This document shows, in pieces, positions 5,875 through 34,839 of a stretch of DNA of 38,105 nucleotides (positions are counted from its first letter, which is position 1; each line of letters begins with the position of its first letter). The stretch comes from an uncultured Bacillales bacterium (GTDB lineage: Bacteria > Bacillota_I > Bacilli_A > RF39 > UBA660): contig CAMOXZ010000002.1 in assembly GCA_946629545.1 (NCBI GenBank), forward strand, positions 1 through 38,105. The letters are read 5' to 3'. The notes under the pieces are model-generated. The model searched no databases, was not told the DNA's origin, and worked only from the letters and a program-made list of their open reading frames with translations. A program made the position numbers and the translations under genes.

Positions 5875-5948
5875 GCGGATGTAGTTTAATGGTAGAACCT
5901 CAGCCTTCCAAGCTGACTACGTGGGTTCGATTCCCATCATCCGCTCCA
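5875..5948 (+). tRNA. tRNA-Gly (anticodon UCC), CCA encoded
   Basis: Cloverleaf read by hand. Acceptor GCGGATG/CATCCGC, anticodon stem TCAGC/GCTGA, loop CTTCCAA, T-arm TGGGTTCGATTCCCA, 3' TCCA. Confidence 0.93.
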
Positions 5949-10673: not shown

Positions 10674-12227
10674 ATGTATATAAATGATAAAGTATTAGTA
10701 GGAAAAAGTAATGAAAAGGAATTATCAATTTTACTAAATAAAGCAAATAGACATGGTTTAATTACAGGAGCTAGTGGTAGTGGTAAAACTATTACTTCTA
10801 AAGTAATGGCTGAGAGTTTTTCAGATGCAGGAATACCAGTATTTATGGCTGATGTTAAAGGAGATTTAGCTGGTACTGCATTACAAGGAGAACCAAATGA
10901 AAATATAGATTCAAGAGTAACTAAACTAGGTTTAGATGGATTTGAATATAGAAACTTCCCAGTAAGATTTTGGGATATATTTGGAGACTATGGTCATCCA
11001 ATAAGAACATCACTAGATTCAGTAGGACCAGAAATTCTATCTATGATGTTAGGATTAAGTGAAACTCAAGAAGGAGTTTTAACAGTAGTTTATAAAATAG
11101 CAAGAGACAATGACTGGGAATTAGATGATATAAAAGATTTAAGATTATTACTACAATATGTAGGTGATAATAGAGAAAAGTTTACAACTTCTTATGGTAA
11201 TGTAACTACTCAATCAGTAGGAGTTATTCAAAGATGTTTATTAGCATTAGAAAATCAAGGAGGAGACAAATTCTTTGGACAACCTGAACTTGATATAAAT
11301 GATTTTTTAACAGTAGATTCTAATGGTAAAGGTATGATTAATATACTTCATGCAGTTAAGTTATTTGAATCACCTGATTTATTTGCATCATTCTTATTAT
11401 GGTTATTAACTACTCTATATAATAAAATGCCTGAAGTAGGGGATTTAGATAAACCTAAAATGGTATTCTTCTTTGATGAAGCACATTTATTATTTAATGG
11501 AATGCCAGAATATCGTTTAAAAAGAATTGTACAAGTTGTTAAATTAATAAGATCTCGTGGTATTGGATTATACTTTGTATCACAATCTCCAGCAGATATT
11601 CCAAATGATATAATTGCTCAATTAGGAAATCGTGTACAACATACTTTAAGAGCATATACTCCAACAGAATTAAAAGCAGTTAAAGTAGCTGCAGATTCAT
11701 TTAGAACTAATCCAGAATTTAATACATATGATGCAATTCTTAACTTAGGTACAGGTGAAGCATTAATTAGTTTCCAAAATGAAAATGGAGAACCAGAAGT
11801 AGTACAAAAAGCAACTATTCTTCCACCACAAAGTAAAATGGGAGTAATTGATGATATCTCAAGAAATAAAATAATTAATTCTTCAAGTCTATTAGGTAAA
11901 TATGATGAAGTAGTAGAAAGAGAATCAGCATATGAAGAAATAGAAGAAATTAATAAATTAATAAAAGAAAAATATGAGGCTGAAGCAGCAGCTAAAGAAG
12001 AAGAAAAACAAAGACAATTAGAAGAAAAAGAAGCTGAAAAACAAGCTAAGTTAGAAGAAAAAGCTAAAAAGGAAGAAGAACGTGCAGCTGAGAAGAAAAA
12101 ACGTGAAGAAGAAAAGAAAAAGAAAAATTCTATAGAATATAAATTAGGTAAAAAGGTATTTAATTCTGCAAGTAATAAAGTAATTAATAAAGGATTAAAT
12201 GCTATATTTAAAAACTTCTTTAAGTAG
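10674..12227 (+). CDS. HerA-like / DUF853 (YjgR-type) P-loop ATPase with a K/E-rich coiled-coil tail
   Basis: Walker A GASGSGKT and Walker B MVFFFDEAH. The length and layout match YjgR-type proteins. The C-terminal roughly 100 aa are E/K/A-rich. Confidence 0.75.
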   Translation: MYINDKVLVGKSNEKELSILLNKANRHGLITGASGSGKTITSKVMAESFSDAGIPVFMADVKGDLAGTALQGEPNENIDSRVTKLGLDGFEYRNFPVRFWDIFGDYGHPIRTSLDSVGPEILSMMLGLSETQEGVLTVVYKIARDNDWELDDIKDLRLLLQYVGDNREKFTTSYGNVTTQSVGVIQRCLLALENQGGDKFFGQPELDINDFLTVDSNGKGMINILHAVKLFESPDLFASFLLWLLTTLYNKMPEVGDLDKPKMVFFFDEAHLLFNGMPEYRLKRIVQVVKLIRSRGIGLYFVSQSPADIPNDIIAQLGNRVQHTLRAYTPTELKAVKVAADSFRTNPEFNTYDAILNLGTGEALISFQNENGEPEVVQKATILPPQSKMGVIDDISRNKIINSSSLLGKYDEVVERESAYEEIEEINKLIKEKYEAEAAAKEEEKQRQLEEKEAEKQAKLEEKAKKEEERAAEKKKREEEKKKKNSIEYKLGKKVFNSASNKVINKGLNAIFKNFFK

Positions 12228-20702: not shown

Positions 20703-21671
20703 ATGGAATTAGAAAACCAATTTGATATTAAATCAAGAAGAATAAATATGCTTGATAGTTATGGAGAAGATTTCTGCGAAAAAACTTATATTACTAATCC
20801 AGCAATTGGAAGAGACAAACAAATTAAAGAAATGATTTTAATATTATTAACTCCTGATAAATCAGCAGTATTAATAGGTAAACCTGGTGTTGGTAAAACT
20901 GCTATAGTTGAAGGACTTGCTTATCGTATTCAAAAAGGTGCAGTACCAGATATATTAAAAGATTATAAAGTTATCAAATTAAATACAGCAGCTCTATTAG
21001 GAGTAGATCCAGTAACAGGAGAATCTAAAGTACAAATCTTAATAGAAGAATTAAAAAGTAAATCTAAGTTAATATTATTTATAGATGAAATTCATACTCT
21101 TATGGGTTCAAAAGATGAATCAATGGATTTTGCTAATATGTTTAAACCTGCCCTAGATAGAGGAGATATTAAAGTAATTGGTGCTACTACTATAGATGAA
21201 TATGAAAGATATATTTTAAGAGATAAAGCCTTTGTAAGACGTTTTCAAAAAGTAGAAGTACAAGAACCAACTAGAGAAGAAAATATTGAAATTCTAATAG
21301 GTACTCTTCCTAAAATTGAAAAAAGAACAGGTGCAAAAATGATGTATACTGCATTCATTCAAAAGAAAATGATGGAGTTTATTACTGATATAACTAGTGA
21401 ATATAAAAGAATATATGAAATAGGATCACGTTATCCAGATGTTTCTTTAACTATAATTCAAGAAGCATTCTCAAATGCATTATTTGATAATAGATTTGAA
21501 GTAAATGTAATGGATTTCAAAAAAGCTATAATGAGTAGTAAGAATATCTATCCAGATGTTATCGCTAAATCTATGCCTATCTTTGATGCAACATTTAAAG
21601 ATCAAATAGCTGAATATGAAAATTCAAAACAAAACAATATAGAAAGACTATCAGATGATACTATTGAATAA
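20703..21671 (+). CDS. Stand-alone AAA+ ATPase resembling the D1 module of ClpA/ClpB/ClpC (no N-domain, no D2)
   Basis: IGRDKQIKEM..LIGKPGVGKTAIVEGLAYRI (Walker A), LFIDEIHTL (Walker B), and GATTIDEYERYILRDKAFVRRFQKVEV (sensor-1 and Arg finger region). All match Clp/Hsp100 D1, but the protein ends at 322 aa. Confidence 0.8.
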   Translation: MELENQFDIKSRRINMLDSYGEDFCEKTYITNPAIGRDKQIKEMILILLTPDKSAVLIGKPGVGKTAIVEGLAYRIQKGAVPDILKDYKVIKLNTAALLGVDPVTGESKVQILIEELKSKSKLILFIDEIHTLMGSKDESMDFANMFKPALDRGDIKVIGATTIDEYERYILRDKAFVRRFQKVEVQEPTREENIEILIGTLPKIEKRTGAKMMYTAFIQKKMMEFITDITSEYKRIYEIGSRYPDVSLTIIQEAFSNALFDNRFEVNVMDFKKAIMSSKNIYPDVIAKSMPIFDATFKDQIAEYENSKQNNIERLSDDTIE

Positions 21672-21685
21672 ATAGGGGTGATTAA

Positions 21686-22867
21686 ATGAAATGTGTTAAG
21701 TGTGGTAAAAAACTAAAAAGTAATGAAAAATTCTGTACATATTGTGGATATTATAATGATAATGGTGAAGAAGAAACTTGGAGTACAGAAGCACCTCAAG
21801 AAGAAGATTTACTAGAAGAAAACTGGTATGATGATGATGTAGAAGCAAATGAAGATGAAGAAGTAAAAGTAGAACCAGTTAAGAAAGAAAAAATAAAAAA
21901 AGAAAAAGAAACTAAAAAAGAAAAAATTAAAAAAGAAAAGCCTGTAAAACCAGAAAAAACTAAAGAAATAAAAGAAATAAAAATAAAAGAAGATAATGAA
22001 GTATATGATCAAAATGAGAAATATATAGAAGCCTATATAGGAGAAGACTATAAACTAATTAAGAAAAGTCCATTTAATATTTGGGCATTCTTATTAAACT
22101 GGATGTATTTACTATATAGAAAACTATATATAACAGGAGTTATAGGTTTAACATTAACTGTCATAATAGCATTATTCTTTACTAAGTATTTTCTTATTTA
22201 TTTTATAATCACAATAATAGTATTAGGCTTTGCATTTAATAAATATTACATATATATAGTAAAAAGAAAAGTAGATAGTATTCTAAAAGAATATGAAGGA
22301 ACAGATTCTTTCTCATTAGAAAAAATGTGTAGTGAATTTGGTGGAGTAAATATACCAATGGCACTTATAATATACATAGTATTCTTAATTGTCATAATAA
22401 TAAGCATAGTAAAACCAACAGTAAACACAACACATAATACTAAGTTTTGGAAAGAAAACAGTGAGAATGAAGCTAACTGTTTATCATTAATAAAACTAAT
22501 ATATAAAAAAGCACCATCAGTAAAATTAACTGAAGCATTATGCAAAGTTAATAAAGATACTAAAAATTATGATTTATATATAAAAATAGACAAAGATGGT
22601 AAAGTAGTTTATGAATACTACACAACAGAAAGTGATTATATAGTATATAAAAATAATACAGAATTCTTAGAAAATCTAAATAAGAAAAAAGCAGAAAATA
22701 GAATTACTGTAGAAGAAGAAAAAAATCTAAGTGATATAAAAATGATTATGAATAATTATGAAACTATTCATAGTAATTCATTAAAAGAAGATAAATTAAT
22801 AAAATCAAAAAAAGATAAATCAGAAAAATTAAACTATATATTTGAACGTGAAGTAATAATAAGATAA
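21686..22867 (+). CDS. Zinc-ribbon / K-E-rich linker / DUF2628-like membrane protein with a C-terminal soluble domain
   Basis: CVKCGKKL..CTYCG zinc ribbon, the low-complexity stretch KKEKIKKEKETKKEKIKKEKPVKPEK, then NIWAFLLNWMYLLYRKLY and TM helices. Confidence 0.6.
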   Translation: MKCVKCGKKLKSNEKFCTYCGYYNDNGEEETWSTEAPQEEDLLEENWYDDDVEANEDEEVKVEPVKKEKIKKEKETKKEKIKKEKPVKPEKTKEIKEIKIKEDNEVYDQNEKYIEAYIGEDYKLIKKSPFNIWAFLLNWMYLLYRKLYITGVIGLTLTVIIALFFTKYFLIYFIITIIVLGFAFNKYYIYIVKRKVDSILKEYEGTDSFSLEKMCSEFGGVNIPMALIIYIVFLIVIIISIVKPTVNTTHNTKFWKENSENEANCLSLIKLIYKKAPSVKLTEALCKVNKDTKNYDLYIKIDKDGKVVYEYYTTESDYIVYKNNTEFLENLNKKKAENRITVEEEKNLSDIKMIMNNYETIHSNSLKEDKLIKSKKDKSEKLNYIFEREVIIR

Positions 22868-25777: not shown

Positions 25778-25854
25778 TGGGGCGTCGTATGAGAATCGAA
25801 CTCATGCGTACTAGTGCCACAAACTAGCGTGTTAACCACTTCACCAACGGCGCC
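25778..25854 (-). tRNA. tRNA-His (anticodon GUG) with encoded G-1 and CCA
   Basis: Folded by hand. Anticodon stem CTAGT/ACTAG, loop TTGTGGC, T-arm ATGAG-TTCGATT-CTCAT. The extra 5' G pairs with C73. There is one C-A mismatch in the acceptor stem. Confidence 0.9.
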
Positions 25855-30117: not shown

Positions 30118-30130
30118 TACCTATAAATCA

Positions 30131-30139
30131 TGGTATAAT
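30131..30139 (+). promoter_or_regulatory. Extended -10 (TGgTATAAT)
   Basis: Read directly, upstream of ATG 30168. Confidence 0.45.
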
Positions 30140-30167
30140 AAATTATGTAATAATTAGGAGGTATAAT

Positions 30168-30734
30168 ATGATATGCCCAAAATGTAAAATGAAGATAAAT
30201 AATCCGGATTATTGCTTTCATTGTGGTTATATGTCCAATGGAAACGTAATTGAAACTAAAAAAACTGTTCCTACAATGCTAGAATTATACTTCAATGAAA
30301 AAGATGATAAATACATAAGAAATAGAAATTGGCTTGTTGCAGGTATTTTAGGACCAGTATATATTTTTTGTCATGGGTATTATGTAGTTGGATTATTACT
30401 AATTGTTTTAGATTATTTAGTTTCATTATTTTTCCTAATATTCAATCATGCATTATTGTATTACTATGTTGTCTTATTATTAAATGTTATTTACTTTGTA
30501 GTGAATAGAGTATTATGGGCAACAATTGGTAATATGATTTATCTTAAACTATTAACAAATAGACTAACAAAAATGAAAAATGATAACTATGAGTATTACA
30601 CAAAAGAAATCCAACAACTATATAAAAAAGATAATAAGTTAATAATATTAAAATATATTATATTTGGAATACTATTTATATTAATATTCTATTATATAAA
30701 AGAAGCTGTATATAATAATCTTGGACTTTTATAA
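30168..30734 (+). CDS. Zinc-ribbon plus DUF2628-like membrane protein (short paralogue of 21686-22867)
   Basis: CPKCKMKI..CFHCG zinc ribbon, then NWLVAGILGPVYIFCHGYY and TM helices. AGGAGG RBS. Confidence 0.6.
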   Translation: MICPKCKMKINNPDYCFHCGYMSNGNVIETKKTVPTMLELYFNEKDDKYIRNRNWLVAGILGPVYIFCHGYYVVGLLLIVLDYLVSLFFLIFNHALLYYYVVLLLNVIYFVVNRVLWATIGNMIYLKLLTNRLTKMKNDNYEYYTKEIQQLYKKDNKLIILKYIIFGILFILIFYYIKEAVYNNLGLL

Positions 30735-30747
30735 AAGTCTTTTTTTA
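30723..30747 (+). terminator. Intrinsic terminator
   Basis: GGACTTTT/AAAAGTCT stem followed by TTTTTTT. Confidence 0.55.
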
Positions 30748-30780: not shown

Positions 30781-30809
30781 TTGACATTTTAGTCATTTTA
30801 TGCTATAAT
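30781..30809 (+). promoter_or_regulatory. Near-consensus promoter driving the candidate ncRNA
   Basis: TTGACA (30781-30786), 17-nt spacer, TGcTATAAT (30801-30809). This is the best promoter match I found in the window. Confidence 0.7.
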
Positions 30810-30815
30810 TATATA

Positions 30816-31444
30816 CGTAATTGATGGCACATTATTCTAGTCAATTACTTTATTATGAAGACGAGCTTAAAAATTCGTTAAAAGGCATATCTGTGAAACC
30901 TTTGGTGTTTGCTTCTTACGCCCAGTTTGGGGTGAATGCTGAAGATGAGAATCTTGGGAGATTCATAATGGCATATGAATTAGACCCATTATTCGTGGAG
31001 ACCAATTGTTGTGGTAAATCTATACGAACAACTTCTGATGATTTTATTACGAAATTGGATAGAACCTGTATTGTGGCGAAAGCTATGTGCAGTGTAGCCT
31101 GTCTTGCGTGAAGATTCTGGGATAAATGATCTCTTTTATTTTGGACGGCCACCTAAAATAAAAATTGCATTTTGAAATAGTCTTTGCAAAAAAGAATTAA
31201 TAATAGAGTGTTGGAGAGGAAATCTCCTAGAGTGTATTTTAATATAAGATTGCAGTGGGCACTAAGTGGTAATCAAGTCATATGAATGGAAACATCATAT
31301 TGATTCTTTTAAAGGGGAACCACAATATTGGTAACGATATTGTAAGAATCAGGGAAATCCTACTTGACCTATGGCTCAAAGTTAATTATATTGAATGCTA
31401 AACAATTTTAACAAAAAATAAGTAGTCAAACTACTTTTTTTTTT
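30816..31444 (+). ncRNA. Candidate large (about 630 nt) structured non-coding RNA; family not assignable by eye (size class of OLE/ROOL-type RNAs)
   Basis: It has its own promoter and terminator and no RBS-preceded ORF. G+C counted by hand is 28/60 (30901-30960) and 24/60 (31081-31140), against 14/60 in neighbouring coding DNA (31501-31560). Helices found: 30817-24/30841-48 (8 bp); 30949-54/30959-64; a GAAA-capped stem at 31072-87; GGAGA-GGAAA-TCTCC at 31213-27; 31280-85/31295-300; and 31301-08/31344-51 (8 bp) enclosing 31322-28/31337-43 (7 bp). Confidence 0.6.
31420..31444 (+). terminator. Intrinsic terminator ending the candidate ncRNA
   Basis: AAGTAG/CTACTT stem followed by 10 consecutive T. 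Confidence 0.65.
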
Positions 31445-31452
31445 GCTATAAT
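31444..31452 (+). promoter_or_regulatory. Extended -10 (TGcTATAAT) abutting the ncRNA terminator T-run; promoter for the downstream operon
   Basis: Read directly, 22 nt upstream of ATG 31475. It is the same TGCTATAAT 9-mer as the ncRNA promoter. Confidence 0.5.
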
Positions 31453-31474
31453 TATTATAGTATGGAGGTCTATT

Positions 31475-31963
31475 ATGGAATTAGATGATTGGAAAGACTT
31501 GGATTCTAATATAGAAGTCAAACTAGATAGAAAAGAATTTAAAATAACTGAGTTAAAACTAGAACACTATTGGAATTATGATATAGATGAAGGTATGCCT
31601 ATAAAGACAAGTGTAGAGTTAACTAGTAAACTTAATTTTGAAACAGATAAACTAGATTGGAAAAAGATTATTTCTCATACTTATAAAGATTTAGAAAACA
31701 ATGATGTAACTGACACATATGAAGAATTAGTAGATGATAGTATTATTAGTGAAATAGAAAAATATGATTTACGAGATTTAAATAATAATTATTATAATGA
31801 TTCAACACCTGAAAGTTATACTCACTGGGAATTAACATATAATAATTATTTTAAAATAGTAGGAACATATGATCTTGAAATAGAAGAAGTAACAAGAATT
31901 AAAAGACTACTAGATTTTAAAAGAATAATAGAAGAAGCAAAAGATAAAAACAAACTAAATTAG
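31475..31963 (+). CDS. Acidic 162-aa protein, function unknown
   Basis: GGAGG RBS. Rich in D/E/N/Y. No motif I recognise. Confidence 0.5.
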   Translation: MELDDWKDLDSNIEVKLDRKEFKITELKLEHYWNYDIDEGMPIKTSVELTSKLNFETDKLDWKKIISHTYKDLENNDVTDTYEELVDDSIISEIEKYDLRDLNNNYYNDSTPESYTHWELTYNNYFKIVGTYDLEIEEVTRIKRLLDFKRIIEEAKDKNKLN

Positions 31964-31973
31964 GAGTGATTGT

Positions 31974-33524
31974 ATGGGATTAATGAATATATATAATAAT
32001 GCAAGAAATCCTATTGATGACATTAATATAATTAATAAAATATTAGAATTATATGCAAATGGTAAATCATTATATCACAATATTGTACGTGTCTATAATA
32101 GAGTAGACTCAAGAAAGTATTCGATACCAGATTATAATGAATTATATGCTATGTTATTTAATAAATGGAAACAAAGTGTTGTTAGTATGACATATGAAGA
32201 ATATGTTAATTTATGTTCTAAAGGAGTATTAAAACAAGATTTTAAAAAACTAAGAAGCTTTTTAAAAACAGTACCTGATGTAAGTACTAAAGAAGAAGCT
32301 GATAAAATTTTATCTATAGAGACAAAAGATAAAGAACTACAAGATGCTATGTATAGATATAGATATAATTCATTTGGTGAAGCATCAGGTTGGGAACATT
32401 TTTATTCTAGATATATTCATGCTAAAAAAGATAAAGATGAACAAATAGATCATAGATTATATTTAAGTGTAGATAGTAGAGGACTTTTTCAAGTAGCAAA
32501 GTATTTTACTGAAATATGTGAAAAAGAAAATATACCATATTATTTTAAATATGATGTAGGTACATCTAGAGATGATTCAATGGTAGTATATTCATCTACA
32601 AAAAATTTAGAAAAATATATAGATATACTTAGAACTATTAAGAAAGAACATCCAGAATTAGAACAATTTTTAAATAAACCTCCAGTTCTTTCAGCACCAA
32701 TTGATGAATGGATTGGCTATGGTTCAGAACCAGTTTGTACTAAAGAAAATGGTGATAGATATTCATTTAATTCAATGAGAGAAGAAATAATTGAAAATGC
32801 AATTTCAAGTGTTACCGGTAAGTGGGTTAATGATCATAGAAATATGAATATAAATTTCCGTGGTAATAAAATTACTTTTGAAGAATATATTATTAATTGC
32901 ATAACAGATAGACAACGTATAGAGTTAAATAAGAAAATTAATTATTGGGAAAGTGAAAATATAAGAGTTGCTAAAGTTAAGGGAAAAGATTTTATACCAT
33001 ATGTTATTGAAGATATGGTTGGATGTACAAAAGCAGATGTTACAAATCCTAAATTTAGAGATTATTTATATAATAACCTATATAGTCAAAAAGATAGAAT
33101 TATGGATACTATAATTAGTGGAAATTATAAAGGAACACCTGACTTTAAAATTAATGGTAGAAATAATAAAAGTATTGGAGTTACAGGACAAGATATAAAG
33201 AAAACAATGTGTGTAATATATACTCAAATTTCAAAATTTGATCCTAATTATGCTAAAGATATTCAAACATATATAAAAGAAATTTCTGTTCAATATGGAG
33301 TAGATCCTAATAACTTTAGTTTTGATAAAAAAAGAGTACAAGATATGATGGTATATGATAAAAAAGTAGCAAGTCAAAACCAAGTACAAGAAGATAAAAA
33401 AGAGTTAAATGAAATGTTAAAAAAAGAAGTAGTTAAGCCTCGAAATAGATGGGCAAATGAAACAGATGAAGAGTATGAAAAATACTTAAAAGAGTTTTAT
33501 GGTGGGGAAGGTAATAGAATATGA
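31974..33524 (+). CDS. 516-aa protein with a central HopA1 / LanKC-N-terminal(lyase)-like segment, function unknown
   Basis: AGGAG RBS. DHRLYLSVD...IPYYFKYD...SRDDSMVVYSS...PPVLSAPI..GYGSEP follows the strand/FK/R.D..V.Y pattern I associate with the HopA1 and class III lanthionine synthetase N-terminal family. This is a resemblance only. Confidence 0.4.
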   Translation: MGLMNIYNNARNPIDDINIINKILELYANGKSLYHNIVRVYNRVDSRKYSIPDYNELYAMLFNKWKQSVVSMTYEEYVNLCSKGVLKQDFKKLRSFLKTVPDVSTKEEADKILSIETKDKELQDAMYRYRYNSFGEASGWEHFYSRYIHAKKDKDEQIDHRLYLSVDSRGLFQVAKYFTEICEKENIPYYFKYDVGTSRDDSMVVYSSTKNLEKYIDILRTIKKEHPELEQFLNKPPVLSAPIDEWIGYGSEPVCTKENGDRYSFNSMREEIIENAISSVTGKWVNDHRNMNINFRGNKITFEEYIINCITDRQRIELNKKINYWESENIRVAKVKGKDFIPYVIEDMVGCTKADVTNPKFRDYLYNNLYSQKDRIMDTIISGNYKGTPDFKINGRNNKSIGVTGQDIKKTMCVIYTQISKFDPNYAKDIQTYIKEISVQYGVDPNNFSFDKKRVQDMMVYDKKVASQNQVQEDKKELNEMLKKEVVKPRNRWANETDEEYEKYLKEFYGGEGNRI

Positions 33525-34114
33525 AACAAGAAACTAAAAAAACAGAATTAAAACAATTAGTAGAAGAGACTAAGAAAAAAGAAAGAATAAAAAAAGAAAA
33601 AGTAGATATTAAATGGCTAATCACAATAGTCATAGTAACATTTATTATCTCTTTTGGATTATCGTTTGTAGCTAATTCTACAATACCTAATTTATCTTTA
33701 ATATTTGGTATTATTATCACATTATTATTTATAGTAATAGGTATTATATTTGATATTATAGGAGTTTCCGTAACTAGTGCCGATGAAAAAGTATTCCACT
33801 CAATGGCTGCTCGTAAAGTAAAAGGTGCATCAACTGCAGTTAAACTAAAAAAGAATGCTGATAAAACAAGTAGTTTCTGCTGTGATGTAATAGGAGATAT
33901 TTGTGGAGTAATTTCAGGTGCTGCAGGTACTACAATATGTGCCATATTAGTAACTAAATATCATACAGATTTATTACTAACAGGTTTAATAATTACAGCT
34001 ATAATTTCATCATTCACAATAGGTGGAAAAGCATTAGGAAAAAGTTTTGCTATTAATAAAAGTGATATTATTCTATATGAATTTGCTAAAATTTTATCAA
34101 ATTTCTATCATTAG
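33521..34114 (+). CDS. 197-aa four-TM membrane protein with a Lys-rich N-terminal tail; DUF21/CNNM-transmembrane-like
   Basis: ATGA start/stop overlap with the upstream gene. The N-terminus is MKQETKKTELKQLVEETKKKERIKKEK. There are four hydrophobic helices. The segment TSADEKVFHSMAARKVKGASTAVKLKKNADKTSSF..GDICGVISGAAG resembles the SE.AL.S...L...G...A motif of DUF21. Confidence 0.45.
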   Translation: MKQETKKTELKQLVEETKKKERIKKEKVDIKWLITIVIVTFIISFGLSFVANSTIPNLSLIFGIIITLLFIVIGIIFDIIGVSVTSADEKVFHSMAARKVKGASTAVKLKKNADKTSSFCCDVIGDICGVISGAAGTTICAILVTKYHTDLLLTGLIITAIISSFTIGGKALGKSFAINKSDIILYEFAKILSNFYH

Positions 34115-34170
34115 TTTACAAAAAACAACTTATGTGTTATAGTAATGCACAAAACGAAAGGGAGTATTTT

Positions 34171-34839
34171 ATGGGATACAAGTTAGATGATAAAGATATC
34201 AAACTTACTGGAAAACAATGGACCAAAATAGGTACTGGTGTTAAAGGTGATGTTTATAAGTATCGTAATATGGCTTTAAAAGTATTTAAAGAAGATAGAG
34301 ATACTCCTATTGACGTTTATACTGCAGAATACTTAACAAGCATTTCAACAGATAGAATATTACTTCCACAAAATCTATTATTTTATAATAATTCATTTAA
34401 AGGTTATACATACAAACTAGTATCTAAAAGAGGATCTGGTCAAAGAATGATTATGTTACCAAAACAAGATCTAATTCAAGATATTAGAGTATTAGAAGAA
34501 GATATAAAAACATTAAGTAATAAGAGTGTATTATTAAATGGAATATCTCCAGAAAATAGTATATTTAATGGAGAACTATATTTAGTAGATCCAACAGAAT
34601 ATAGAGTATTAGAAAACTGTTCTACAAAAGAATTAGAAGAATTAAATAAATTCCAATTACACTTATTATTAACTACATTAATCTCACTAGAATTAAGAAG
34701 AAATAATTTTACTTCTAAAACAGAAAGAGATGTAAAAGAATTATTTAATTTAAGAGAAGTAGAAGAAAATAGTAGTAGATTCTTTAATGATATTATTGGT
34801 AATAATGAGTCAATAAAAGAATTTGTAAAGAAGATATAA
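34171..34839 (+). CDS. Small protein-kinase-like fold protein with an atypical catalytic loop
   Basis: GAAAGGGAG RBS before ATG 34171; the track start at 34132 has none. G-loop GTGVKG, beta3 Lys in MALKVFK, a catalytic-loop analogue LNGISPENSIF (the HRD Asp position is Gly), and YLVDP in place of DFG. Confidence 0.5.
   Translation: MGYKLDDKDIKLTGKQWTKIGTGVKGDVYKYRNMALKVFKEDRDTPIDVYTAEYLTSISTDRILLPQNLLFYNNSFKGYTYKLVSKRGSGQRMIMLPKQDLIQDIRVLEEDIKTLSNKSVLLNGISPENSIFNGELYLVDPTEYRVLENCSTKELEELNKFQLHLLLTTLISLELRRNNFTSKTERDVKELFNLREVEENSSRFFNDIIGNNESIKEFVKKI

What the first reader, a model, noticed from the sequence alone, without database searches (positions are those of the whole stretch)
30781..31444. 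Promoter-to-terminator unit encoding a roughly 630-nt, G+C-enriched, helix-rich RNA with no credible ORF
The sequence shows several things directly. A near-perfect sigma-A promoter (TTGACA, 17-nt spacer, TGcTATAAT) is the best promoter match I found in the window. About 630 nt downstream there is a hairpin followed by 10 T. Between the two, G+C is clearly elevated: hand counts give 28/60 and 24/60, against 14/60 in adjacent coding DNA. The only ORFs in the interval start on TTG or lack an RBS, and their composition differs from the K/N/I-rich proteome. There are many exact helices. An 8-bp stem sits right at the predicted 5' end (30817-24/30841-48). A UGGG-capped 6-bp stem lies at 30949-64 and a GAAA-tetraloop stem at 31072-87. 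A GGAGA-GGAAA-UCUCC hairpin is flanked by the direct 8-mers TAGAGTGT (31204-11 and 31228-35). An 8-bp helix (31301-08/31344-51) stacks on a 7-bp helix (31322-28/31337-43), leaving an unpaired UUAAAGGGGAACC strand. It is established that in very AT-rich Firmicutes, local G+C spikes with their own promoter and terminator are the classic signature of structured RNAs. The known large bacterial RNAs of this size are OLE, ROOL, GOLLD, RNase P RNA and tmRNA. I looked for RNase P (GAGGAAAGUCC), the tmRNA tRNA-like end, group II intron domain V, the T-box sequence, and several riboswitch cores, and found none of them. I therefore infer that this is either a divergent member of an ornate large-RNA class or an undescribed one.
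Basis: partly seen in the sequence, partly recalled or inferred. Interest (0 to 1): 0.88.

Follow-up and report, generated by a model that had tools for sequence, protein, structure and literature searches.

The report
Known OLE RNA gene, split locus
The flagged stretch is a textbook copy of OLE RNA, a large structured bacterial RNA that has been studied since 2006, so it is real but not new; the only unusual point is that two extra genes sit between it and its usual partner gene oapA.

Summary
A perfect sigma-A promoter (30781-30809), a hairpin plus T10 terminator (31420-31444), the highest G+C in the window and no conserved ORF bracket a structured RNA of about 630 nt. It is not an undescribed class. 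Rfam's OLE model (RF01071) matches 30808-31417 end to end at 376 bits (gathering score 50). Across 73 distinct homologues from uncultured gut and rumen Bacilli MAGs, 89% of model base-pair cells are paired, against about 40% in slid controls, and 101 of 160 pairs show compensatory changes. All stems of the "full-length" type are present, as are the OapB-site hairpin and the dimerisation loops. The partner gene oapA is at 33521-34114 (four TM segments, DxxxD motif, weak CNNM-like match). In 69 of 77 related species ole ends 150 nt or less before oapA. Here, and in a small subclade, a two-gene module lies between them: a 162-aa protein and a 516-aa HopA1/phospholyase-like protein. The second gene's stop codon overlaps the oapA start. 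Verdict: a known RNA family with ordinary biology and a minor locus variant. In passing, I found truncated OLE 3'-domain RNAs in the tRNA islands of metagenomic viral contigs.

The parts
30781..30809 (+). Sigma-A-type promoter of ole: TTGACA (30781-86), 17-nt spacer, extended -10 TGcTATAAT (30801-09). The predicted transcription start is about 30815-30817.
   Evidence: 12/12 match with TG. The same promoter, at 10/12 or better, sits at the same distance in 70 of 76 related loci, most of them 12/12 with TG.
30808..31417 (+). OLE RNA (Rfam RF01071), full-length type. The predicted primary transcript runs from about 30816 to about 31444.
   Evidence: 376.3 bits, E 3.2e-107, model 1-616/616; 140 of 152 model pairs are canonical; covariation in 73 homologues.
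30817..30848 (+). 5'-terminal stem (30817-24 with 30841-48) enclosing the invariant GGCACAUUAUUCUAGUC loop. It is not in the Rfam model and is probably P1 of the published model.
   Evidence: helices 1-2: outer 5 pairs 83% paired, 4/5 with compensatory changes.
30848..31208 (+). Long-range helix 30848-56 with 31200-08 that closes the 5' two-thirds of the RNA (stems with loops CUUAAAAA 30866-73, GCCCA 30920-24, AAUGGC 30968-73, CGGCCA 31146-51). Its position fits the P3 stem of the current OLE model.
   Evidence: 91.3% paired, 8/9 pairs compensatory, 0/500 shuffles reach the observed values. The loops are invariant or nearly so. Equating it with P3 is inference from the text of PMC12265935.
31280..31300 (+). 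P13-type hairpin: 5 bp, a single bulged A, 3 bp and a GAAA (GNRA) loop. These are the features required for OapB binding in H. halodurans. A GUAA-capped P14.1 hairpin lies next to it at 31322-43.
   Evidence: helices 17 and 19 (95% paired). Requirements taken from PMC7936274.
31420..31444 (+). Intrinsic terminator: 7-bp stem, CAA loop, T10.
   Evidence: A perfect hairpin plus T-run is found at the same place in 71 of 84 related loci.
31444..31452 (+). Second extended -10 element (TGCTATAAT) immediately after the terminator, with a weak -35 (TAGTCA 31423-28) inside the terminator. It is the likely promoter of the downstream genes. An RBS (GGAGG) lies at 31464-68.
   Evidence: 10/12 with TG. It is conserved in L004, where it directly precedes oapA. 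Promoter function is inferred.
31475..31963 (+). Inserted gene 1: 162-aa protein with no family match, the partner of the HopA1-like gene.
   Evidence: no hits. It is absent from L004. Homologous ~165-aa genes precede the HopA1-like gene in L087 and L091-93 and, at 36% identity, in L082; an unaligned 183-aa gene occupies the same upstream position in L089.
31974..33524 (+). Inserted gene 2: 516-aa HopA1-like protein with a C-terminal tail KPRNRWANETDEEYEKYLKEFY. Its stop codon overlaps the oapA start (ATGA at 33521-24).
   Evidence: PF17914, 37.6 bits, cutoff 22.7. (AF2 pLDDT 85). (fold matches to lanthipeptide-synthetase lyase domains, LxmY and HopA1)..
33521..34114 (+). oapA (OLE-associated protein A), 197 aa.
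   Evidence: Four hydrophobic segments, DVIGD (DxxxD) at residues 122-126, and a basic loop between TM2 and TM3. Weak CNNM match, PF01595, E 2.5e-4. Homologues lie 150 nt or less downstream of OLE in 69 of 77 species.

Best explanation
The interval is the ole gene. It encodes a full-length OLE (ornate, large, extremophilic) RNA of an uncultured, very AT-rich gut or rumen member of the Bacilli. What is shown here: the RNA matches the OLE covariance model end to end, its helices covary, and it has its own consensus promoter and intrinsic terminator. The membrane-protein gene oapA lies 2.1 kb downstream on the same strand. What is inferred from work on Halalkalibacterium halodurans and Clostridium OLE RNAs: the RNA is made in large amounts and folds into two domains. 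It dimerises through its A-rich loop, its GCCCA/UGGC kissing loops and its GGCC loop. OapA dimers hold it at the cell membrane, together with OapB (at the GNRA-capped, bulged P13 hairpin) and OapC. The resulting RNP helps the cell cope with stresses such as short-chain alcohols, cold, excess Mg2+ and poor carbon sources. Its biochemical activity is still unknown for every member of the family. In this lineage ole is a separate transcription unit. oapA is probably expressed from a second promoter embedded in the ole terminator, together with two inserted genes.
For: Rfam RF01071 scores 376.3 bits against a gathering score of 50, E 3.2e-107, model 1-616/616, with no other non-tRNA family hit in the window. 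140 of 152 model pairs are canonical. In 73 distinct homologues, 89.3% of pair cells are paired against 38-47% for slid partners. 101 of 160 pairs carry compensatory changes against 43-62 in slid controls, and 0/500 shuffles reach the observed values. An additional long-range helix is supported. The P13 hairpin has a GNRA loop and a 1-nt bulge, and the dimerisation-loop sequences are present (criteria from PMC7936274 and PMC12265935). The oapA candidate has four TM segments, a DxxxD motif, a basic loop and a weak CNNM match (criteria in PMC11332333). Its homologues lie immediately downstream of OLE in 69 of 77 species-level loci, and in the close relative L004 the gap is 66 nt. The promoter is conserved in 70/76 loci and the terminator in 71/84.
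Against: oapA is not the immediate downstream neighbour here, since two genes intervene. No expression data exist for this organism. OapB and OapC cannot be looked for, because only 38 kb of the genome is available. All functional statements are transferred from distant species. The OapA structure model was of low confidence (pLDDT 55), so fold similarity to CorB/CNNM was not tested.
Confidence: 0.96

Rival explanations
1. It is a previously undescribed class of large structured RNA.
For: None after testing.
Against: There is a full-length, 376-bit match to Rfam OLE. The conserved OLE sequence blocks are shared with 72 other loci that sit next to oapA.
Confidence: 0.01
2. It is the remnant of a decayed protein-coding gene, or it encodes the 96-aa TTG ORF.
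For: A 96-aa stop-free frame exists at 30821-31111.
Against: The frame contains stops in 72/72 relatives and net frameshifts in 44. Substitutions are compensatory across helices rather than codon-periodic. There is no RBS.
Confidence: 0.01
3. It is an OLE gene that has been functionally uncoupled from oapA by the insertion and is decaying or redundant.
For: A 2.1-kb insertion separates ole from oapA, whereas 69 of 77 relatives keep them 150 nt or less apart.
Against: The RNA scores as well as its relatives, with 140/152 canonical pairs and a perfect promoter. The same split arrangement persists in at least four further genomes (L087, L091-L093). Their inserted proteins have diverged to 44-47% identity, while ole still scores 497-538 nhmmer bits against the window's copy. 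That pattern implies long-term maintenance.
Confidence: 0.03
4. It acts mainly in cis, as a long structured leader controlling read-through into the downstream 162aa/516aa/oapA genes.
For: In H. halodurans ole is part of a polycistronic transcript (PMC12265935). Here the terminator is AT-rich, so some read-through is plausible.
Against: The hairpin plus T-run terminator is conserved, and a separate extended -10 element follows it. OLE is known to act as a stable trans-acting RNP component.
Confidence: 0.02

Closest known systems
OLE RNA (Rfam RF01071), 'full-length' type as defined by Fernando & Breaker 2024 (PMC11332333). Reference members are Halalkalibacterium halodurans OLE and the Clostridium acetobutylicum and C. 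botulinum OLE RNAs solved by cryo-EM (PMC12286853, PMC12265935).
   Same: It is about 610 nt long and has all the model helices, including the P7- and P8-position stems. It has the conserved junction sequences, the GNRA-capped bulged P13 hairpin, and the A-rich, GCCCA, UGGC and GGCC loops. It is linked to oapA on the same strand, and the host is a member of the Bacillota.
   Different: It is an independent transcription unit with a perfect consensus promoter and its own terminator, rather than part of a long isoprenoid/DNA-repair operon. The neighbours are SIR2, an LD-carboxypeptidase, cotJB/cotJC and an ABC-F ATPase. Two genes are inserted between ole and oapA. The short 4-bp hairpin at model positions 424-435 is absent.
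OLE variant 1 (TANB77) and variant 2 (RF39) RNAs (PMC11332333)
   Same: The hosts are the same kind of organism: uncultured, genome-reduced gut Bacillota known only from MAGs.
   Different: The variants lack or shorten P7-P9 and the OapB site. The window RNA keeps them all. Some relatives in alignment A3 do carry deletions in the P7-position stem (for example L008, L030, L045, L061).
ROOL, GOLLD, HEARO, raiA-motif, RNase P and tmRNA
   Different: None of these models scores at its gathering threshold anywhere in the window.

Membership tests
OLE RNA (RF01071) | Match to the curated covariance model above the gathering score, over the full model | tested here: met
   376.3 bits against 50; model 1-616/616; E 3.2e-107.
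OLE RNA (RF01071) | Conserved multi-helix secondary structure maintained by covariation | tested here: met
   89.3% of cells are paired against 38-47% in slid controls. 101/160 pairs have double changes. 0/500 shuffles reach the observed values. The alignment was made by MAFFT and was not fitted to the structure.
OLE RNA (RF01071) | 'Full-length' architecture: P7- and P8-position stems and the long P9-position stem are present (their absence defines variants 1 and 2) | tested here: met
   The stems are 31002-19/31042-58, 31066-79/31080-92 and 31101-31196. Mapping them to the P-numbers is inferred from stem order and from the loop descriptions in PMC12265935.
OLE RNA (RF01071) | [quoted passage not shown] | tested here: met
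   31280-31300: AUAUG-A-AUG GAAA CAU CAUAU. Criteria from PMC7936274. Binding itself was not tested.
OLE RNA (RF01071) | Conserved loops used for RNA dimerisation (A-rich P4 loop, P5.1/P6.1 kissing loops, palindromic P9 loop) | tested here: met
   CUUAAAAA 30866-73, GCCCA 30920-24, AAUGGC 30968-73 and CGGCCA 31146-51. They are invariant or nearly so in 73 sequences. Description from PMC12265935. Dimerisation was not tested.
OLE RNA (RF01071) | Alternative k-turn flanking P5 (OapC site) | not tested
   The flanking joining sequences match the Rfam consensus. I did not model the k-turn.
OLE RNA (RF01071) | Genetic linkage to oapA on the same strand | tested here: met
   oapA lies at 33521-34114, 2.1 kb downstream on the same strand.
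OLE RNA (RF01071) | oapA as the immediate downstream neighbour (described as 'most common', not universal; PMC12265935) | tested here: not met
   Two ORFs (31475-31963 and 31974-33524) intervene. This is a frequent feature of the locus, not a defining feature of the RNA family. 8 of 77 related species also exceed 150 nt.
OLE RNA (RF01071) | Host belongs to the Bacillota, typically an anaerobe or extremophile | tested here: met
   The closest loci are gut and rumen MAGs labelled Bacilli, Erysipelotrichaceae, Tenericutes or Mollicutes. The exact GTDB order was not determined.
OLE RNA (RF01071) | Presence of oapB (ybzG) and oapC (ybxF) in the genome; membrane localisation; stress phenotypes | not testable with these tools
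   Only a 38-kb window (40.6-kb contig) is available. No such genes are in the window.
OapA | About 200-aa protein with four transmembrane helices and a basic cytoplasmic cluster | tested here: met
   The hydropathy windows and AF2 helices 30-52, 56-86, 119-147 and 153-179 give four hydrophobic segments at roughly residues 30-52, 56-86, 120-147 and 150-175. Loop 87-118 has 8 K/R against 3 D/E.
OapA | DxxxD motif (absent from CNNM domains) | tested here: met
   DVIGD at 122-126, within the invariant block FCCDVIGDICGVISGA in 14 homologues. Criterion from PMC11332333.
OapA | Distant similarity to the CNNM/MpfA transmembrane domain | tested here: inconclusive
   PF01595 gives E 2.5e-4 and 21.2 bits, below the cutoff of 28.4. 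The paper describes OapA as scoring in this sub-threshold zone. There is no PDB sequence hit, and the AF2 model was too poor for a fold search.
ROOL / GOLLD / HEARO / raiA / RNase P / tmRNA | Match to the family covariance model at its gathering score | tested here: not met
   At gathering thresholds, only OLE and two tRNAs are reported in the window.
HopA1 effector family (PF17914), for the inserted 516-aa protein | Pfam match above the cutoff and a HopA1/phospholyase-like fold | tested here: met
   37.6 bits against 22.7. Foldseek matches HopA1 (4rsx/4rsw), LxmY (9dk1-3) and class III lanthipeptide synthetase lyase domains at E 5e-4 to 1e-2 over about 150-250 alignment columns. Catalytic residues were not examined.

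The most novel reading that the evidence does not exclude
The RNA itself is ordinary. In this subclade, however, the ole-oapA pair has stably captured a two-gene module: a 162-aa protein and a HopA1/phospho-Ser/Thr-lyase-like 516-aa protein. The second gene overlaps the oapA start codon, which suggests translational coupling. Its added C-terminal tail (KPRxRxxNETDEEYxxYLxEFY) is shared with an unrelated, very rare transglutaminase-like family. That family's closest members occupy exactly the same ole-oapA slot in other lineages (L058, L067, L096). The most novel reading not excluded is that these are lineage-specific accessory or cargo proteins, recruited to the OLE ribonucleoprotein or to OapA through that tail.
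Probability: 0.1. Interest if true: 0.5.

Novelty: already known. Interest (0 to 1): 0.15.

Why it matters
For the RNA itself, the main value is correct annotation. The finding adds one more full-length OLE representative, from an uncultured low-G+C gut or rumen Bacilli lineage, to a family already catalogued in thousands of genomes (2,822 GTDB hits in PMC11332333; 8,585 non-redundant sequences in PMC12286853). There are two modest points of value. First, in this clade ole is a self-contained, consensus-promoter-driven transcription unit. That makes these sequences convenient for expression and structural work, and it gives 73 closely spaced sequences rich in compensatory changes. Second, the ole-oapA spacer appears to be a recurrent insertion site for effector-like genes, which might hint at new partners of an RNP whose biochemical function is still unknown. 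Neither point changes what is known about OLE.

Tried and rejected
(1) I considered a new RNA class and rejected it on the Rfam hit.

(2) I considered a coding or pseudogene origin and rejected it, because the ORF is broken in 72/72 relatives.

(4) I tested whether the window is a phage or plasmid. The neighbours are chromosomal housekeeping genes (proS, dnaE, bipA, lspA, glmS). The OLE sequence has no blastn match in GenBank phages. The plasmid collection was not searched.

(5) I looked for a defence-system or phage origin of the inserted genes. PADLOC gave no hits and PHROGs only insignificant ones.

(6) The OapA AF2 model had pLDDT 55, so I ran no fold search. PDB sequence searches with OapA, the 222-aa downstream protein and the HopA1-like profile gave nothing significant.

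(7) I tested the hypothesis that the ETDEEY tail is specific to proteins encoded next to oapA. It is weakened: distant members of the transglutaminase-like family carry the motif in loci without oapA (L094 beside ffh/ftsY, L095 in a Mob/recombinase element). HopA1-like relatives of 716-755 aa, one of which (P0147, L089) sits in a mobile-element context, lack the tail.

(8) The 14-mer scan of IMG/VR returned mostly chance hits, and only 10 of 120 loci had real OLE similarity.

Full report
**Observation.**
- The promoter is TTGACA (30781-86), a 17-nt spacer and TGcTATAAT (30801-09). It is a 12/12 match and the only perfect one in the 3.5 kb scanned.
- The terminator is a 7-bp stem (AAGTAGT/ACTACTT, 31420-36) with a CAA loop, running into ten T (31435-44). 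The consensus scanner missed it only because the stem has two G-C pairs.
- G+C is 0.338 for 30808-31417, against 0.266 for the window and 0.23-0.25 for the flanking genes. Only 0.4% of 610-nt windows reach that value.
- The only ORFs are a 96-aa TTG frame and a 78-aa antisense GTG frame.
- The predicted transcript folds better than shuffles, with z = -4.5.

**Identity.** A scan of the whole window against Rfam 15 gives one non-tRNA hit. It is OLE (RF01071) at 30808-31417, scoring 376.3 bits against a gathering score of 50, E 3.2e-107, covering model positions 1-616 of 616. ROOL, GOLLD, HEARO, RNase P and tmRNA do not match. When the model's base pairs are mapped onto the window, 140 of 152 are canonical.

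- the GAAA-capped stem (31066-92);
- the GGAGA-GGAAA-UCUCC hairpin (31216-26 core);
- the stacked helices 31301-08/31344-51 and 31322-30/31335-43, which leave UUAAAGGGGAACC unpaired.

**Comparative test.** I used the candidate partner protein (below) to fetch 80 species-level loci from GTDB representative genomes. All are uncultured gut or rumen MAGs labelled Bacilli, Erysipelotrichaceae, Tenericutes or Mollicutes. nhmmer finds OLE in 83 of the 86 loci held at that point.

- 89.3% of cells are paired, against 38-47% when partners are slid by 1-3 columns.
- 101 of 160 pairs show changes on both sides, against 43-62 in the slid controls.
- No shuffle out of 500 reaches the observed values.

The UGGG hairpin (30949-64) is not supported: 46.7% paired, no different from shuffles. 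Its bases pair with 30985-94 instead.

I also found a long-range helix, 30848-56 with 31200-08, that is not in the Rfam model. It closes the 5' two-thirds of the RNA and is 91.3% paired, with 8/9 pairs compensatory. Its position fits the P3 stem of the current published model; that assignment is my inference.

The 96-aa frame is interrupted by stops in all 72 relatives, so a coding or pseudogene origin is excluded.

**Type.** Fernando & Breaker (PMC11332333) distinguish full-length OLE from variant 1 (short P7-P9, no OapB site) and variant 2 (no P7/P8). The variants are common in TANB77 and RF39 gut MAGs. The window RNA has all of these stems. It also has a P13-type hairpin with a GAAA loop and a single bulged A (31280-31300), which are the features required for OapB binding (PMC7936274). 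It carries the loop sequences described as dimer contacts in the cryo-EM structures (A-rich loop, GCCCA and UGGC loops, GGCC loop; PMC12265935). It is therefore a canonical full-length member, not a divergent one.

**Partner gene and context.** The 197-aa ORF at 33521-34114 has:
- four hydrophobic segments;
- DVIGD (the DxxxD motif that distinguishes OapA from CNNM domains);
- a basic loop between TM2 and TM3;
- a sub-threshold CNNM match.

These results come, with the criteria taken. Its homologues lie directly downstream of OLE in relatives. The spacer is 150 nt or less in 69 of 77 species, with a median of 56 nt, and 66 nt in the close relative L004. It is oapA.

The window is chromosomal, with proS, dnaE, bipA, lspA, glmS, cotJB/cotJC and SIR2. 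The classical isoprenoid and DNA-repair neighbours of ole are not present.

**Transcription unit.** The consensus promoter is conserved at the same distance in 70 of 76 relatives, mostly 12/12 with the TG extension. A hairpin plus T-run terminator is found in 71 of 84. In this clade ole is therefore an autonomous and presumably very strongly expressed unit. In H. halodurans, by contrast, it lies in a polycistronic transcript. A second extended -10 element (TGCTATAAT, 31444-52) directly after the terminator is conserved in L004, where it precedes oapA.

**How it works.** The mechanism is inferred from the literature, not shown here. OLE RNA dimerises, is bound by OapA dimers at the membrane and by OapB and OapC, and is needed in H. 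halodurans for growth in ethanol, cold, high Mg2+ and poor carbon sources. Its chemistry is unknown.

**What is different here.** Alignment with L004 shows two insertions flanking ole:
- 30119-30735, a 188-aa zinc-ribbon/membrane protein that is also present in L021;
- 31456-33535, which separates ole from oapA.

The second insertion encodes a 162-aa protein with no family match and a 516-aa HopA1-family protein (PF17914). The 516-aa gene's stop overlaps the oapA start. Its AF2 model (pLDDT 85) matches the lyase domains of class III lanthipeptide synthetases, LxmY and HopA1.

The same ole-165aa-515aa-oapA arrangement occurs in four further metagenomic contigs. Their HopA1-like proteins are only 44-47% identical to the window's, while OLE remains highly similar. 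It therefore looks like an old, maintained insertion.

**The tail motif.** Residues 1-482 align with a homologue in L082, which is encoded divergently upstream of ole and lacks the tail. They are also homologous to the N-terminal ~480 residues of a 716-755-aa group; one member looked up (P0147, L089) lies in a mobile-element context and also lacks the tail.

The last ~35 residues (KPRNRWANETDEEYEKYLKEFY) are shared only with a rare transglutaminase-like family, which has 40 clusters among 5.8 billion proteins. Three members of that family occupy the same ole-oapA slot in L058, L067 and L096. Its distant members carry the motif in loci without oapA. The motif is therefore not specific to the OLE locus, and a role as a docking peptide remains a low-probability idea.

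**In passing.** A 14-mer scan of IMG/VR returned mostly chance hits. Ten viral contigs, however, carry truncated OLE matches of 99-124 bits:
- They span about 150-340 nt and cover essentially the 3' domain (model ~280/439-595). They retain the invariant ACUAAGUGGUAAUC, the P13 and P14.1 hairpins and CUUGACCUAAG.
- They sit inside dense tRNA arrays, three of them with tmRNA and one with a complete ROOL RNA.
- No oapA is nearby, and there is no match in GenBank phages.
- The papers I could read describe ROOL and GOLLD, but not OLE, as phage-borne.

**Verdict.** The RNA is a known family member with a strong database hit. Novelty for the flagged feature is nil, and interest is low. The split ole-oapA locus and the viral mini-OLE RNAs are side observations that may merit separate follow-up.

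Noticed in passing
window 31456-33535 (genes 31475-31963 and 31974-33524); also L087, L091, L092, L093: A two-gene module (a ~162-aa unknown protein plus a ~516-aa HopA1/phospholyase-like protein) is inserted between ole and oapA, and the second gene's stop overlaps the oapA start. It is conserved in a subclade, where the inserted protein has diverged to 44-47% identity. It is absent from 77 other species-level loci.
   Followed up: yes
window 33462-33500 (tail of the 516-aa protein); L058 4621-4659; L067 2523-2561; proteins P0241-P0280: The motif (I)PGTxIxKPRxRxxYE(T/S)DEEYxxYLxxYY, often in 2-3 copies, is shared by the HopA1-like protein's tail and a very rare transglutaminase-like family (40 clusters). 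That family's closest members also sit between ole and oapA (L058, L067, L096). Distant members (L094, L095) are elsewhere, so the link to OLE is suggestive but not exclusive.
   Followed up: partly
IMG/VR loci L177 4198-4349, L113 4169-4320, L148 2499-2650, L206 2901-3058, L166 1851-2050, L169 5520-5719, L156 1175-1379, L165 5822-6158, L173 11595-11987, L108 1039-1328: Truncated 'mini-OLE' RNAs (99-124 bits to RF01071) consist essentially of the OLE 3' domain. They are embedded in large tRNA arrays of metagenomic viral contigs, with tmRNA in three loci and a full ROOL RNA in L173 (3625-4261). No oapA lies within the fetched flanks, and there is no match in GenBank phages. I found no description of phage-borne OLE in the searchable literature.
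   Followed up: partly
window 30119-30735 (ORF 30168-30734): A second lineage-specific insertion lies just upstream of the ole promoter. It encodes a 188-aa protein with an N-terminal zinc-ribbon-like CxxC...CxxC and hydrophobic segments, and it has its own terminator-like hairpin. It is present in L021 (76% identity) and absent from L004.
   Followed up: partly
window 34132-34839 (gene call 34171-34839, 222 aa): A conserved gene of unknown function lies immediately downstream of oapA. A homologue starts within 250 nt after oapA in 37 of 76 related loci. It has no significant Pfam, NCBIfam or PDB match. Its N-terminal GxGxxGxVY...ALKVF pattern looks kinase-like, but that is unverified.
   Followed up: partly
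alignment A3 (L008, L030, L045, L047, L048, L053, L060, L061, L075, L084; L040): Several relatives have natural deletions of the distal part of the P7-position stem, and L040 lacks the distal P9-position stem. These are intermediate forms between the 'full-length' and 'variant' OLE types within one clade.
   Followed up: no
window 5875-5945 (+) and 25781-25853 (-): There are two tRNA genes (71.7 and 55.6 bits), which are ordinary chromosomal features.
   Followed up: no
window 10674-12227, 20703-21671, 21686-22867: A HerA-like ATPase gene (PF05872, E 8e-183) lies at 10674-12227. Separately, at 20703-22867, an AAA/STAND-like ATPase gene sits next to a zinc-ribbon protein gene. These could be defence-related or housekeeping genes. 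I did not examine them.
   Followed up: no
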